Positions 10,972 to 13,012 are shown, numbered from the stretch's first letter. The stretch is DNA of 64,000 nt from Candidatus Woesearchaeota archaeon (GCA_937912225.1 CALDOJ010000038.1:17408-81407), one strand, 5' to 3'. Translations and numbers: made by a program. The notes: generated from the letters alone by a model not told the origin.

Positions 10972-12420
10972 ATGAAAGTATTGGTTTTAAATCCACCAAG
11001 CACTGTAACTAAGAATTATATTCGAGATCTTATTTATGGTTGCTGGTGTAAAGGAAAGAGAATAGGAGGAGCAACTTCTCCACCATTAAACTTACTTTAT
11101 ATAGCTACAATTCTAAAAAATGACGGTCATAAAGTTAAATTTGTAGACGCTCTTGCAGAAGAAAAATCAATAGATGATATTAAAAAAATAATCAAACAAA
11201 CTGATGTTGTTATTGAATCAACTTCTCAAATGAGTTTTACTGACGACGTTCATGTATTAACTCAATTTAAAAAAGCAAATCCAAAATTAGTTACAATTCT
11301 TTTTGGTTCACAACCAACATTTTATCCAGAAGAAGCACTTGATCAAAAAGCAGTTGATATTCTTGTTAAAAGAGAAGCAGAATTTATAATTAAAGATGTT
11401 CTTCATTTAATGGAACAAGGAAAAGATTGGGGAAAAGTTCTTGGAATTGCTTATAGAAAAAATGGTAAGAAAATTATTAATCCAGATTATCCATTTTCAG
11501 ATGTTAATAAACTTCCTATTCCAGACAGAACATTCTTACCAAAGAACATAGATTTTTTTAATCCTATAATCAAAAGAATGCCTTATACAACTGCAATGAC
11601 TTCAAGAGGTTGTCCAGGTTTGTGTACCTTTTGTAATGTACCTGATTTTTATGGTAAAACTGATAGATTCATGACTGCAGAAAGAGTTATTGAAGAGATA
11701 AAAGAAATAATGAAACTAGGTTATCGAGAAATTTGGTTTAGAGATGAAACATTCACAGCATTTCCAAAAAGAAACGAAATTATTTGTAATTGGTTAATTA
11801 AAAATAAAGTAGATTTAACTTGGATTGCAAATGCAAGAGTTAATATGATTACAAAAGATATGATGAAATTAATGAAAAAAGCAGGTTGTCATATGATTAA
11901 ATTTGGTGTTGAATCAAGTAACCAAGAAATATTAAATAGAGTTAAAAAAGGAATAAAAGTTAGTAAAACAAAAGAAGTTTTTAGTTGGGCAAATGAAATA
12001 GGAATTGGAACTCATGCCCATACTATGATTGGAATGCCTGGCGATACAAAAGAAACAGTAGAAGCAACAATTCAATTCATTAAAGAAATAAATCCAACAA
12101 CGGCCACATTTGGTATATGTACACCTTATGCAGGAACTCCAATGTTTAATGAAGTACTTGAAAAAAATCCTGCAATTAAAGATGGAAGTTCATTAAGTAA
12201 AGTTAGACTTCATGTAGATGCATATTATAGCAAACATTTTACAAAAGTATCCAATAAAGATTTACAAAGATACTTGAAAAAAGCTTATAGAGAATTTTAT
12301 TTTAGACCAAGTTATATTTGGAAATGGATAAAAAGGATTGATAACCTTGATGAATTAAAAAGAGTTCTTTTAGCAGGAAGTAATGTTTTTAGTTTTGCAA
12401 CAAATAAGAAAATGTCTTAA
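10972..12420 (+). CDS. B12-binding domain/radical SAM protein (class B radical SAM)
   Basis: N-terminal cobalamin-binding-like domain, radical-SAM cluster MTSRGCPGLCTFCNV, and 482 aa typical of class B RS methyltransferases. Confidence 0.8.
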   Translation: MKVLVLNPPSTVTKNYIRDLIYGCWCKGKRIGGATSPPLNLLYIATILKNDGHKVKFVDALAEEKSIDDIKKIIKQTDVVIESTSQMSFTDDVHVLTQFKKANPKLVTILFGSQPTFYPEEALDQKAVDILVKREAEFIIKDVLHLMEQGKDWGKVLGIAYRKNGKKIINPDYPFSDVNKLPIPDRTFLPKNIDFFNPIIKRMPYTTAMTSRGCPGLCTFCNVPDFYGKTDRFMTAERVIEEIKEIMKLGYREIWFRDETFTAFPKRNEIICNWLIKNKVDLTWIANARVNMITKDMMKLMKKAGCHMIKFGVESSNQEILNRVKKGIKVSKTKEVFSWANEIGIGTHAHTMIGMPGDTKETVEATIQFIKEINPTTATFGICTPYAGTPMFNEVLEKNPAIKDGSSLSKVRLHVDAYYSKHFTKVSNKDLQRYLKKAYREFYFRPSYIWKWIKRIDNLDELKRVLLAGSNVFSFATNKKMS

Positions 12421-12421
12421 A

Positions 12422-13012
12422 ATGATTTCTTCTGAAAAAGATTGGACTGAAGAAAAATATCACAACATTTTAACAAAAGGAATAACTTCTAATTTTATTA
12501 AAAATCTTTTAATTGAAGTAAAAAAGTTTAAAACCAATTCGGTTCTAGATATTGGTTGTGGAACTGGTTATATAACAAAGAGAATTTCTTTAGTAAAACC
12601 AAAAGTGATTGGTTGTGATATTGATAAAGAAAAATTAGTCTTAGCCAAAAAATATACTAAAAATAAAATTAGATTTAAACACGTTAATGATAAAAAATTA
12701 CCTTTTAAAGATAATAGTTTTGATTTAATTATTTGTTCAGAAGTACTAGAGCATATAGAAGATATTGATTTTTTTCTAACAGAAATAAAACGAGTTGGAA
12801 AAAAGTTTTTATTAATAACTGTTCCAAATGAACCATATTTTAGAATTGCTAATTTTTTAAGATTAAAAAATGTTTTAGAATTTGGAAATGGTCATGGTCA
12901 TATTAATCATTTTAACAAAAAAACATTAAAAAAAGTTTTTCCAAAAGAATTTAAACTTAAAAAATTAAAAATAAATAGTTGTCTTTGGTTAATGGCTATT
13001 TATGAACTTTAG
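12422..13012 (+). CDS. Class I SAM-dependent methyltransferase (ORF-track start 12383; probable true start is the ATG at 12422)
   Basis: Motif I VLDIGCGTGYITKRI and motif II FDLIICSEVLEHI. The ATG directly follows the radical-SAM stop codon. Confidence 0.7.
   Translation: MISSEKDWTEEKYHNILTKGITSNFIKNLLIEVKKFKTNSVLDIGCGTGYITKRISLVKPKVIGCDIDKEKLVLAKKYTKNKIRFKHVNDKKLPFKDNSFDLIICSEVLEHIEDIDFFLTEIKRVGKKFLLITVPNEPYFRIANFLRLKNVLEFGNGHGHINHFNKKTLKKVFPKEFKLKKLKINSCLWLMAIYEL

What the first reader, a model, noticed from the sequence alone, without database searches (positions are those of the whole stretch)
10972..13012. B12-binding radical-SAM enzyme coupled to a class I methyltransferase (second paralog at the window start)
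Class B radical-SAM enzymes catalyse methylation at unactivated carbons. Finding two of them (2..1039 and 10972..12420) next to SAM methyltransferases inside an aglB island points to C-methylated and/or O-methylated sugars in the glycan. C-methylation of glycan sugars is rare.
Basis: inference. Interest (0 to 1): 0.55.

Follow-up and report, generated by a model that had tools for sequence, protein, structure and literature searches.

The report
Radical SAM sugar-tailoring enzyme beside aglB
An uncultured DPANN archaeon encodes, next to its N-glycosylation enzyme AglB, a conserved but uncharacterised radical SAM enzyme that always travels with a lipid-phosphate-sugar synthase and probably remodels a lipid-linked sugar, though nothing shows that it adds a methyl group.

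Summary
The genes are real. ORF 10972-12420 is a 482-aa protein with a B12-binding-type domain and a radical SAM domain. A class I methyltransferase follows it, most likely starting at 12422. ORF 2-1039 is the C-terminal part of a second, only 28% identical, enzyme of the same class. AglB lies at 6984-9995.

The C-methylation reading is not specifically supported. The first enzyme belongs to a tightly conserved, uncharacterised clade (43-73% identity across DPANN archaea, Methanocella, Omnitrophota, Planctomycetota and CPR bacteria). The clade carries its own N-terminal RDxxYGCWCKGKR motif.

Its closest characterised relative is HpnJ, the proposed non-methylating ring-contraction enzyme for hopanoid glucosamine (269 bits). 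A moenomycin MoeK5-type sugar C-methylase scores only 137 bits on the same model.

The conserved genomic partner is not the methyltransferase (30% of loci). It is a GtrB/ArnC-type GT2 that loads sugars onto polyprenyl phosphate (81% of loci). In archaea a flippase-like membrane protein and a PMT_2 GT-C transferase join the pair, often beside aglB.

Best model: a cytoplasmic radical SAM step tailors a dolichyl-phosphate-linked sugar before it is flipped and transferred. The chemistry (rearrangement or methylation) is unresolved. Interest is moderate. I class it as a new variant of a known kind.

The parts
10972..12420 (+). Radical SAM enzyme 1 (482 aa, soluble). It has class B architecture and belongs to an uncharacterised HpnJ-related clade.
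   Evidence: Pfam hits. NCBIfam HpnJ 269 bits, below the 577.6 cutoff. Homologues at 43-73% identity. AF2 model with pLDDT 92. No TM-like segment.
11023..11070 (+). Clade-specific N-terminal motif RDLIYGCWCKGKRIGG (residues 18-33). It forms a predicted beta-hairpin between strand 1 and helix 1 of the Rossmann domain.
   Evidence: C26, G23, G28, R30 and G33 are invariant and C24 and W25 nearly invariant in 50 family members. The motif is absent from HpnJ and from the Lawsonia and Solidesulfovibrio relatives. AprD4 shows a partial counterpart, 'GTVCKDE'. pLDDT is 71-75.
11074..11382 (+). B12-binding-type Rossmann domain (residues 35-137).
   Evidence: PF02310 at 42.4 bits, cutoff 32.1. TokK's lower-axial residue W76 aligns to M87. 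Actual cobalamin binding is untested.
11611..11634 (+). CX3CX2C [4Fe-4S] motif C214/C218/C221, within RGCPGLCTFCNVPDFYG.
   Evidence: Invariant in alignments A1 and A2. The motif is nearly identical to MgmA's RGCPGNCTFCQVPEFFG.
12422..13012 (+). Class I SAM-dependent methyltransferase (196 aa). An alternative upstream ATG lies at 12383.
   Evidence: Methyltransf_11 at 76 bits. 36% identical (E 3e-30) to the methyltransferase in the Methanocella arvoryzae module. The start lies 1 nt after the radical SAM stop.
10041..10967 (+). GT2 polyprenyl-phosphate glycosyltransferase (GtrB/ArnC/DPMS type, two C-terminal TM helices). It ends 4 nt before the radical SAM gene.
   Evidence: PDB matches: ArnC 166 bits, GtrB 141, DPMS 74. 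NCBIfam ArnC 191 and PgfS 177 bits. TM-like windows at residues 230 and 262. It is the most conserved neighbour of the clade.
12996..13895 (-). LPG_synthase_TM family membrane protein (flippase-like), convergent with the methyltransferase.
   Evidence: PF03706 at 132 bits and TIGR00374 'flippase-like domain' at 77 bits. Seven TM-like windows. 33% identical to the gene directly upstream of the radical SAM gene in Methanocella.
13892..15574 (-). PMT_2 / ArnT-like GT-C glycosyltransferase, the presumed user of the lipid-phosphate-sugar on the outer face.
   Evidence: PMT_2 at 72 bits and PMT at 48 bits. Orthologues occur in 8 related loci, 7 of them archaeal.
6984..9995 (+). AglB / STT3 oligosaccharyltransferase (1003 aa).
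   Evidence: STT3 at 163 bits. AglB is found within 10 kb upstream of the GT2-radical SAM pair in 5 archaeal loci: L001, L002, L003, L005 and L017.
5903..6892 (+). NDP-sugar 4,6-dehydratase/epimerase-type SDR, the first gene of the plus-strand run SDR-aglB-GT2-rSAM-MT.
2..1039 (+). C-terminal 345 aa of radical SAM enzyme 2 (full length 473 aa on the source contig). A different class B subfamily.
   Evidence: Radical_SAM at 79.8 bits. The full-length protein has B12-binding and Radical_SAM domains. NCBIfam BchE 167, HpnJ 166 and PhpK 153 bits, so no specific affiliation. 28% identical to enzyme 1.
1042..5753 (-). Three GT4 glycosyltransferases on the minus strand (1042-2232, 2229-3458, 4279-5427) and a DUF2304 small membrane protein (5424-5753). 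A plus-strand class I methyltransferase (3523-4275) lies between the GT4 genes.
16103..17863 (+). NodU/MoeM5-type carbamoyltransferase.
   Evidence: Carbam_trans_N at 275 bits and Carbam_trans_C at 236 bits.
18094..19473 (+). Two small EamA half-transporters (ArnE/F-like) and a second GT2. They mark the far end of the glycan island.

Best explanation
ORF 10972-12420 encodes a soluble radical SAM enzyme with class B architecture. I propose that it tailors the sugar of a dolichyl-phosphate-linked monosaccharide on the cytoplasmic face of the membrane.

Proposed sequence of steps:

1. The upstream GT2 (10041-10967, GtrB/ArnC/DPMS type) loads a sugar onto the polyprenyl phosphate.
2. The radical SAM enzyme abstracts a ring hydrogen with the 5'-deoxyadenosyl radical and remodels the sugar.
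3. The downstream class I methyltransferase (12422-13012) may add an O- or N-methyl group.
4. The LPG_synthase_TM protein (12996-13895) translocates the lipid-linked product.
5. The PMT_2 GT-C enzyme (13892-15574) transfers it to a surface acceptor. This could be the AglB-installed N-glycan, a surface protein or a lipid.

What is shown: domain content, family relationships and conserved gene order. What is inferred: substrate, order of steps and chemistry.

For the chemistry I give HpnJ-type non-methylating radical rearrangement or redox chemistry about 40%. Cobalamin-dependent C-methylation gets about 30%. Other outcomes, such as dehydration or epimerisation, get about 20%.
For: 1. Architecture. 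B12-binding and Radical_SAM domains, a CX3CX2C motif and no TM segment. The AF2 model has pLDDT 92 and matches class B structures at TM 0.62-0.80.

2. Closest family.
- The HpnJ model scores 269-292 bits over the full length for the window protein and for clade members. This is 75-110 bits above any other model.
- True HpnJ is 29-30% identical.
- In the NJ tree the clade is monophyletic at 100% and sister to HpnJ plus a Lawsonia glycan-cluster enzyme at 64%.
- As a control, a MoeK5-type methylase scores only 137 bits on the HpnJ model, level with ApyD and BchE.

3. Conserved partner.
- A GT2 lies within four genes in 35 of 43 loci that have at least 4 kb on both sides, and is immediately adjacent in 29 of 77 loci.
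- 16 of 17 tightly adjacent GT2s carry the C-terminal TM pair of polyprenyl-phosphate glycosyltransferases.
- The window GT2 matches ArnC, GtrB and DPMS structures.

4. Archaeal module.
- Methanocella arvoryzae has LPG_synthase_TM - rSAM (53%) - GT2 (57%) - MT (36%) and then a PMT_2 gene.
- DPANN loci L001, L003, L005 and L065 keep GT2-rSAM together with a PMT_2 gene, and L001, L003 and L005 also keep the LPG_synthase_TM gene. aglB lies within 10 kb in five archaeal loci: L001, L002, L003, L005 and L017.

5. Analogy. The hpn operon is GT (hpnI) - rSAM (hpnJ) - deacetylase (hpnK) - LPG_synthase_TM.

6. Precedents. Both HpnJ and MoeK5 act on lipid-bound sugars (PMC13459092, PMC8950095). Lipid-stage methylation of an archaeal dolichol-linked glycan is known in Halobacterium salinarum (PMC11407970).
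Against: - No member of the clade has been characterised.
- Identity to HpnJ is only about 30%, and the clade has its own N-terminal motif.
- HpnJ's own activity rests on a knockout, not on biochemistry (PMC13459092).
- A published sequence-similarity network places HpnJ close to the methylases Fom3 and MoeK5 (PMC9204698).
- The window GT2 and LPG_synthase_TM proteins are not detectably similar to HpnI or to the hpn-operon LPG_synthase_TM protein by BLAST. The resemblance to the hpn operon is therefore one of composition, not orthology.
- No deacetylase is adjacent in the window.
- 8 of 43 full loci lack a nearby GT2. The flippase-like and GT-C genes accompany the pair mainly in archaea.
- A true ring contraction would destroy the anomeric centre that a GT-C transferase needs, so that chemistry fits the rest of the module poorly.
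- Cobalamin binding is untested.
Confidence: 0.6

Rival explanations
1. One reading: enzyme 1 is a cobalamin-dependent radical SAM C-methyltransferase of MoeK5, GenK or GenD1 type. It would place a methyl group on an unactivated sugar carbon and yield a C-branched sugar in the glycan. The class I enzyme would add O-methyl groups.
For: - Most characterised class B enzymes are methylases (PMC9204698, PMC12931638).
- MoeK5 C-methylates a lipid-phosphoglycerate-linked sugar. Its cluster also holds a carbamoyltransferase and AsnB-type amidotransferases. The window has a carbamoyltransferase at 16103-17863, and 16 related loci have AsnB.
- The residues aligned to the two positions that a review links with radical methylases are hydrophobic. 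They are M87 at the TokK W76 position and V223 at the TokK W215 position, and V223 is the same residue as in the methylase MgmA.
- A C-methylated sugar stays a competent glycosyl donor for the GT-C enzyme.
Against: - No methylase model scores near its cutoff.
- Enzyme 1 is closer to HpnJ (186 bits by BLAST, 269 by HMM) than to the MoeK5-like protein (145 bits).
- The tree places it with HpnJ.
- The hydrophobic-residue rule rests on six structures, and HpnJ itself has Trp at the second position.
- PDB ranking does not discriminate. AprD4 is also the top hit for both HpnJ and the MoeK5-like protein.
Confidence: 0.3
2. Enzyme 1 modifies the lipid part rather than the sugar. It would methylate or cross-link the dolichol or archaeol chain of the GT2 substrate, as Gmm, HpnP and HpnR do for other lipids.
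For: - Several class B enzymes act on lipid tails (PMC11214058, PMC13459092).
- A geranylgeranyl-reductase-like FAD protein lies at 20420-21478.
- The pairing with a polyprenyl-phosphate GT2 would also fit a carrier-lipid modification.
Against: - HpnR scores only 97 bits and the ladderane-type lipid model 126 bits.
- The nearest family, HpnJ, acts on the sugar head group.
- The clade occurs in both bacteria and archaea, whose carrier lipids differ.
- Gmm could not be compared because no sequence was available.
Confidence: 0.07
3. The adjacency is incidental. Enzyme 1 would act on a soluble nucleotide sugar, a protein or a cofactor and merely reside in a glycan island.
For: Glycan islands are gene-dense and mosaic. 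8 of 43 full loci have no GT2 within four genes.
Against: The GT2 pairing holds across archaea and at least ten bacterial phyla, with 4-nt to 100-nt spacing on the same strand and in either order. Such persistence through extensive rearrangement is hard to explain without a functional link.
Confidence: 0.05

Closest known systems
HpnJ (TIGR03471), the hopanoid-associated class B radical SAM enzyme proposed to contract bacteriohopanetetrol-glucosamine to the cyclitol ether
   Same: - Same two-domain architecture and length (about 475 aa).
- Best NCBIfam model by a wide margin (269 bits) and sister group in the tree.
- 29-30% identity over about 90% of the protein.
- Encoded next to a GT-A glycosyltransferase and an LPG_synthase_TM protein.
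- Shares His348 on a barrel strand.
   Different: - The score is far below the 577.6 cutoff.
- The source organism has no hopanoid pathway, and no HpnK deacetylase is adjacent.
- The partner GT is of ArnC/GtrB type rather than the GT21-type HpnI.
- The clade has a specific GCWCKGKR hairpin that HpnJ lacks.
- HpnJ's chemistry is itself inferred only from a knockout.
MoeK5, the class B radical SAM C-methylase of the first sugar of moenomycin (orthologue inferred on the S. clavuligerus megaplasmid, L088:11803-13311)
   Same: - Class B enzyme acting on a sugar attached through phosphate to a lipid.
- Its cluster contains a carbamoyltransferase and AsnB-type enzymes, which recur in the window and in related loci.
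   Different: - Only 26% identity and 145 bits to enzyme 1, less than HpnJ. It falls outside the clade in the tree.
- Enzyme 2 is slightly closer to it (159 bits).
- The identity of L088 as MoeK5 is inferred from synteny and from the published presence of a moe cluster on that plasmid.
AprD4, the radical SAM 1,2-diol dehydratase acting on the glucosamine ring of paromamine (PDB 6FD2)
   Same: - Best solved-structure relative by family profile (148 bits) and by fold (TM 0.74-0.80).
- Has a partly similar N-terminal insertion containing a Cys.
- Its substrate is an aminosugar ring.
   Different: - AprD4 has a CX3CX3C motif. From my own knowledge, it does not use cobalamin.
- The NCBIfam AprD4 model scores only 114 of the 500 needed.
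- AprD4 is also the top PDB hit for HpnJ and for the MoeK5-like protein, so the match is generic.
Three-component extracytoplasmic glycosylation systems (GtrB/ArnC-type GT2 + flippase + GT-C). Examples are ArnC-ArnD-ArnEF-ArnT and, in Haloferax, AglD-AglR-AglS.
   Same: - A GT2 with a C-terminal TM pair, a flippase-like membrane protein and a PMT_2/ArnT-like GT-C enzyme are encoded together.
- The concept is reviewed in PMC11127046.
- ArnD shows that a lipid-linked monosaccharide can be edited before flipping (my own knowledge).
   Different: - I found no described system of this kind that contains a radical SAM enzyme.
- The flippase candidate is of the LPG_synthase_TM family, not GtrA, ArnE/F or Wzx type.
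- The acceptor is unknown.

Membership tests
Class B (B12-binding domain) radical SAM enzymes | CX3CX2C [4Fe-4S] motif in a Radical_SAM (PF04055) domain | tested here: met
   C214/C218/C221 are present. PF04055 scores 98 bits for enzyme 1 and 79.8 bits for enzyme 2.
Class B (B12-binding domain) radical SAM enzymes | N-terminal Rossmann B12-binding domain (PF02310) above the gathering score | tested here: met
   Enzyme 1 scores 42.4 bits against 32.1. Full-length enzyme 2 on the source contig carries PF02310.
Class B (B12-binding domain) radical SAM enzymes | Fold matches solved class B enzymes | tested here: met
   Foldseek matches MgmA, TsrM, OxsB, CysS and TokK with E 1e-17 to 1e-25 and TM 0.60-0.69.
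Class B (B12-binding domain) radical SAM enzymes | Actually binds and uses cobalamin | not testable with these tools
   No sequence rule exists (PMC12931638). AprD4 shows that the fold can occur without cobalamin. No B12 transport or salvage genes were seen in the window.
Cobalamin-dependent radical SAM C-methyltransferases (GenK, Fom3, MoeK5, TokK, MgmA types) | Scores at or above the curated cutoff of a characterised methylase family, or has a methylase as nearest neighbour | tested here: not met
   Scores against cutoffs: PhpK 149/600, MgmA 132/360, HpnR 97/650, RiPP C-MT 80/282, KedN5 64/700, TsrM 38/500. The MoeK5-like protein gives 145 bits against 186 for HpnJ.
Cobalamin-dependent radical SAM C-methyltransferases (GenK, Fom3, MoeK5, TokK, MgmA types) | Hydrophobic residue under the corrin and hydrophobic residue between cobalamin and the cluster (heuristic from PMC12931638) | tested here: inconclusive
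   M87 aligns to TokK W76 and V223 aligns to TokK W215 (the position two residues after the third cluster Cys). MgmA also has Val there. HpnJ has Trp at that position, so the rule does not separate the candidates.
Cobalamin-dependent radical SAM C-methyltransferases (GenK, Fom3, MoeK5, TokK, MgmA types) | 1:1:1 formation of 5'-deoxyadenosine, SAH and methylated product | not testable with these tools
   This is a biochemical criterion (PMC8950095).
HpnJ (TIGR03471 equivalog) | Score at or above 577.6 bits | tested here: not met
   The window protein scores 269 bits and clade members 272-292. True HpnJ scores 799.
HpnJ (TIGR03471 equivalog) | Located in a hopanoid cluster with hpnI and hpnK | tested here: not met
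   The window has an ArnC-type GT2, no YdjC-type deacetylase and no hopanoid genes. The true operons are shown.
HpnJ (TIGR03471 equivalog) | Closest relationship among characterised families (works-like test, not membership) | tested here: met
   Margin of 110 bits over the next model. Sister group at 64% bootstrap. The methylase control reaches only 137 bits.
AprD4 family diol dehydratases (NF033070) | Score at or above 500 bits and a CX3CX3C motif | tested here: not met
   114 bits. The motif here is CX3CX2C, whereas AprD4 aligns with an extra residue.
Polyprenyl-phosphate glycosyltransferases (GtrB/ArnC/DPMS) - the GT2 at 10041-10967 | GT-A domain followed by two C-terminal TM helices, with full-length similarity to solved members | tested here: met
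   ArnC 166 bits over residues 5-292, GtrB 141, DPMS 74. TM-like windows at residues 230 and 262.
Three-component extracytoplasmic glycosylation system | GT2 synthase, flippase candidate and GT-C transferase encoded together and co-conserved | tested here: met
   All three are in the window. The same set occurs in Methanocella arvoryzae. GT2-rSAM with a PMT_2 GT-C recurs in DPANN loci L001, L003, L005 and L065, and L001, L003 and L005 also keep the flippase-like gene. Flippase activity is inferred from family membership only.
Class I SAM-dependent methyltransferases - ORF 12422-13012 | Methyltransf_11/25 domain with the glycine-rich SAM motif | tested here: met
   76 bits, with the motif VLDIGCGTG. 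The substrate is unknown, and all NCBIfam equivalogs score far below their cutoffs.

The most novel reading that the evidence does not exclude
The clade could perform an HpnJ/Cds-like hydrogen abstraction at C5 of the sugar ring on a polyprenyl-phosphate-linked hexose or hexosamine. That would create a carbocyclic (cyclitol-type) unit or a 5-ulose-type unit, which the neighbouring methyltransferase could then cap. If so, a whole class of unrecognised remodelled sugars or head groups would decorate the surfaces of DPANN archaea, CPR bacteria, Omnitrophota and Planctomycetota. They would be made at the lipid-carrier stage by a radical SAM enzyme, a step not known in any three-component glycosylation system.
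Probability: 0.25. Interest if true: 0.75.

Novelty: new variant of a known kind. Interest (0 to 1): 0.5.

Why it matters
If the model holds, it adds a radical SAM editing step to the otherwise well-understood scheme of lipid-phosphate-sugar synthase, flippase and GT-C transferase.

It would also point to an unknown sugar modification that is widespread in lineages with almost no glycan chemistry data (DPANN, CPR, Omnitrophota, Planctomycetota).

The clade is compact and highly conserved, and it occurs in a cultured methanogen, Methanocella arvoryzae. It could therefore serve as a more tractable model for HpnJ-type chemistry, which has never been reconstituted.

For annotation, the lesson is that 'B12-binding radical SAM next to a methyltransferase' should not be read as C-methylation.

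Tried and rejected
1. A PDB search with the N-terminal 200 residues alone gave only noise, so the cobalamin site could not be judged from it.

2. I first read the AprD4 top hit as evidence for non-methylating sugar chemistry. Controls showed that AprD4 is also the top PDB hit for true HpnJ and for the MoeK5-like methylase, so I rejected it as a discriminator.

3. I first read the HpnJ best hit as strong evidence against methylation. I weakened this after finding that a published similarity network places HpnJ near Fom3 and MoeK5. I partly restored it after the MoeK5-like control scored only background on the HpnJ model.

4. Orthology of the whole module with hpnI-J-K-L was rejected. The GT and LPG_synthase_TM proteins show no BLAST similarity.

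5. Literature searches found no characterised member and no radical SAM enzyme in a three-component system.

6. I tried to annotate the conserved bacterial neighbour that I call 'TOR506'. It gave only weak alpha/alpha-toroid hits (Pec_lyase, LanC, TED, squalene-hopene cyclase C-terminal domain) and no function.

7. Sequences of Fom3, GenK, Gmm, Cds and S. ghanaensis MoeK5 could not be obtained with the tools, so they are missing from the tree. The Ostash 2009 moenomycin paper was not held.

8. No B12 uptake or salvage gene was found in the rest of the window. With only 64 kb this is uninformative.
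Full report
OBSERVATION

The ORFs named in the finding are all present.
- ORF 10972-12420 (+) encodes 482 aa. It has a Pfam B12-binding domain (residues 35-137, 42.4 bits, cutoff 32.1) and a Radical_SAM domain (residues 210-370, 98 bits). The cluster motif is C214-x3-C218-x2-C221.
- The next ORF is a class I methyltransferase (Methyltransf_11, 76 bits). Its likely start is ATG 12422, one base after the radical SAM stop codon. That start gives 196 aa, which matches the 193-aa Methanocella orthologue end to end.
- ORF 2-1039 is the C-terminal 345 residues of a second radical SAM protein. Its B12 domain lies outside the window. On a longer copy of the same contig the protein is 473 aa and has both domains.
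- AglB/STT3 is at 6984-9995.
- The exact 482-aa protein is recorded on 11 public contigs.

The two radical SAM proteins are only 28% identical and belong to different subfamilies.

SOURCE AND SURROUNDINGS

The window has about 27% GC. The best relatives of its proteins come from Nanoarchaeota and Woesearchaeota genome bins, so the source is an uncultured DPANN archaeon from aquatic metagenomes.

The region from before the window start to about 20.4 kb is one glycan island.
- Upstream of the window lies a nonulosonic-acid-type cluster: NeuB, a CMP-sugar synthetase, a 2-epimerase, a PIG-L deacetylase and a formyltransferase.
- Next come radical SAM enzyme 2, three GT4 genes, a methyltransferase and a DUF2304 protein.
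- A tight plus-strand run follows: SDR - aglB - GT2 - rSAM - MT. The gaps are 45, 4 and 1 nt from aglB onward.
- This run converges on a minus-strand pair, an LPG_synthase_TM gene and a PMT_2 GT-C gene.
- Beyond these lie a NodU-type carbamoyltransferase, two small EamA half-transporters and another GT2.

THE FAMILY OF ENZYME 1

Homologues of about 480 aa share 43-73% identity with it. They occur in DPANN archaea, Methanocella arvoryzae, a Hodarchaeota bin, Omnitrophota, Planctomycetota, Latescibacterota, CPR bacteria and others. None carries a functional name.

Fifty members share 65% mean column identity. They also share a signature, RDLxYGCWCKGKRIGG (residues 18-33). It is inserted between the first strand and first helix of the Rossmann domain. 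HpnJ and the other relatives I aligned lack it.

An AlphaFold model built from this alignment is confident (pLDDT 92, pTM 0.91). The signature forms a beta-hairpin of lower confidence.

WHICH CHARACTERISED ENZYME IS CLOSEST

Against NCBIfam the best model is HpnJ at 269 bits over the whole length. This is well below its 577.6 cutoff, but 110 bits above the next family. The next scores are BchE 159, PhpK 149, MgmA 132, a ladderane-type model 126, AprD4 114, HpnR 97, KedN5 64 and TsrM 38. Two other clade members give 272 and 292 bits.

True HpnJ proteins from Burkholderiaceae megaplasmids are 29-30% identical.

A review states that HpnJ sits near the methylases Fom3 and MoeK5 in a similarity network (PMC9204698), so I looked for a control.
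- The S. clavuligerus megaplasmid is reported to carry a moenomycin cluster (PMC2997539).
- It encodes a class B enzyme flanked by an epimerase, AsnB-type enzymes and a carbamoyltransferase. This is the expected MoeK5 position.
- That protein scores only 137 bits on the HpnJ model, level with ApyD and BchE.
- It gives 145 bits by BLAST to enzyme 1, against 186 for HpnJ.

A neighbour-joining tree gives the clade 100% support. It places the clade as sister to HpnJ plus a Lawsonia plasmid enzyme with 64% support. The MoeK5-like protein, BchE and enzyme 2 stay unresolved outside.

Solved structures do not help.
- AprD4 is the best PDB relative by profile (148 bits) and by fold (TM 0.74-0.80).
- AprD4 is also the top hit for HpnJ and for the MoeK5-like protein.

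The two residues that a review links with radical methylation are hydrophobic here (M87 and V223, the latter as in MgmA). HpnJ has Trp at the second position, so this heuristic does not decide the question.

GENE NEIGHBOURHOOD

I called ORFs in 77 related loci and clustered the four genes on each side. Among the 43 loci with at least 4 kb on both sides:
- a GT2 is present in 35 (81%);
- an unannotated soluble alpha/alpha-toroid protein is present in 21;
- a class I methyltransferase is present in 13 (30%);
- an AsnB-type amidotransferase is present in 9.

The GT2 is immediately adjacent in 29 of the 77 loci, on either side. Sixteen of the 17 tightly spaced GT2s carry the C-terminal pair of TM helices typical of polyprenyl-phosphate glycosyltransferases. 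The window GT2 matches ArnC (166 bits), GtrB (141) and DPMS (74) structures over its full length.

The closest relative of the window locus (L001, 73% identity) has a phosphodiesterase-family gene where the window has the methyltransferase. The methyltransferase is therefore a recurrent but optional accessory.

The archaeal loci add more.
- Window-type PMT_2 genes occur in 8 loci, 7 of them archaeal.
- LPG_synthase_TM genes occur in 5 archaeal loci.
- aglB lies within 10 kb in 5 archaeal loci.
- The complete genome of Methanocella arvoryzae encodes LPG_synthase_TM - rSAM (53%) - GT2 (57%) - MT (36%, opposite strand), followed a few genes later by a PMT_2 gene.

MODEL

The GT2 makes a dolichyl-phosphate monosaccharide. 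The soluble radical SAM enzyme edits its sugar on the cytoplasmic face, and the class I methyltransferase may add an O- or N-methyl group. The LPG_synthase_TM protein then flips the product, and the GT-C enzyme transfers it to an acceptor outside the cell.

From my own knowledge, the pattern follows ArnC-ArnD-ArnEF-ArnT and Haloferax AglD-AglR-AglS. A recent paper describes three-component systems generally (PMC11127046).

Alternatively, the GT2 could be the AglJ-like initiating enzyme of the N-glycan (AglJ model 79 bits). The radical SAM enzyme would then edit the linking sugar.

Editing at the lipid stage has precedents.
- HpnJ acts on a GT-installed glucosamine on a hopanoid (PMC13459092).
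- MoeK5 acts on a lipid-phosphoglycerate-linked sugar (PMC8950095).
- Halobacterium transiently methylates its dolichol-linked glycan (PMC11407970).

The hpn operon has the same composition: GT, radical SAM enzyme and LPG_synthase_TM protein. Only the radical SAM proteins are recognisably related between the two systems.

WHAT CHEMISTRY

This is unresolved.
- Relatedness to HpnJ favours a rearrangement without methyl transfer.
- A true ring contraction would remove the anomeric centre that the GT-C enzyme needs. That favours a change that keeps the sugar a donor, such as C-methylation, deoxygenation or epimerisation.
- I put non-methylating chemistry at about 40%, C-methylation at about 30% and other outcomes at about 20%.
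- One speculative lead comes from the terminal sugar of the Methanococcus maripaludis N-glycan, a 4-deoxy-5-O-methyl-hexos-5-ulose (PMC11407970). A C5 radical step followed by O-methylation could produce such a sugar. I did not test whether that organism has this clade.

ENZYME 2 AND THE METHYLTRANSFERASES

Enzyme 2 has no specific affiliation: BchE 167, HpnJ 166 and PhpK 153 bits. Its top PDB hit is the methylase MgmA. It is slightly closer to the MoeK5-like protein (159 bits) than to HpnJ (115 bits). Of the two enzymes it is the better candidate for a methylase, but the evidence is thin.

Both class I methyltransferases match only generic models.

VERDICT

The finding is real and sits in a genuine aglB glycan island. 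The headline inference of C-methylated sugars is not supported for enzyme 1 and remains only possible.

The stronger result is a widespread, uncharacterised, HpnJ-related radical SAM clade. It is genomically tied to polyprenyl-phosphate sugar synthases and, in archaea, to a flippase-like and GT-C module beside aglB. This is a new variant of known kinds of system, of moderate interest.

Noticed in passing
window 60822-62609 (+), with 57989-59209 and 59220-60452: A eukaryote-type (GT3) glycogen synthase (PF05693, 521 bits) lies next to a GH57 enzyme and a GT4/GT5 starch-synthase-like gene. This is a glycogen cluster in a small-genome DPANN archaeon.
   Followed up: no
window 28725-29462 (-): Peptidase_M15_4 domain (D-Ala-D-Ala carboxypeptidase / endolysin-like, 66 bits) in an archaeon. 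It could be a murein hydrolase aimed at bacterial cell walls.
   Followed up: no
window 25324-25450 (+): Rfam tRNA match of 127 nt (40.8 bits) that ARAGORN did not report. It is probably an intron-containing archaeal tRNA.
   Followed up: no
related loci, e.g. L071:8308-9972, L018:8385-9977, L051:8329-10041, L065:11509-13113: A conserved soluble protein of about 310 or 550 aa lies directly beside the radical SAM gene in 21 of 43 full loci. The typical bacterial cassette is AsnB-MT-GT2-this protein-rSAM. It gives only weak alpha/alpha-toroid hits (Pec_lyase, LanC, TED, squalene-hopene cyclase C-terminal domain) and has invariant GC, EY-G-D-GY and DD motifs. It is absent from the window.
   Followed up: partly
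window 18094-18462, 18446-18796 and 18745-19473 (+): Two overlapping small EamA-type half-transporters resembling ArnE/ArnF are followed by a 242-aa GT2. This may be a second lipid-linked-sugar export unit in the same island.
   Followed up: no
window 20420-21478 (-): An FAD-dependent geranylgeranyl-reductase-like protein lies at the edge of the glycan island. It could saturate dolichol or archaeol chains.
   Followed up: no
L084:12663-21191 (same contig, upstream of the window start): The island continues beyond the window. It holds a CDP-glycerol-transferase-like gene and a nonulosonic-acid-type cluster: CMP-sugar synthetase, GFO/IDH oxidoreductase, aminotransferase, NeuB, PIG-L deacetylase, formyltransferase and UDP-GlcNAc 2-epimerase.
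   Followed up: no
L083 (Lawsonia intracellularis plasmid 1) 3564-12536: A pathogen plasmid carries an HpnJ-like radical SAM enzyme (376 bits on the HpnJ model). It sits in a non-hopanoid cluster with GT2s, two DUF2304 proteins, a SIS-domain protein, a second radical SAM protein and five class I methyltransferases. The gene set parallels that of the window.
   Followed up: partly
window 43749-45146 and 45445-46737 (+): Two adjacent class II Asp/Asn/Lys-type tRNA synthetase paralogues (381 and 227 bits on tRNA-synt_2).
   Followed up: no
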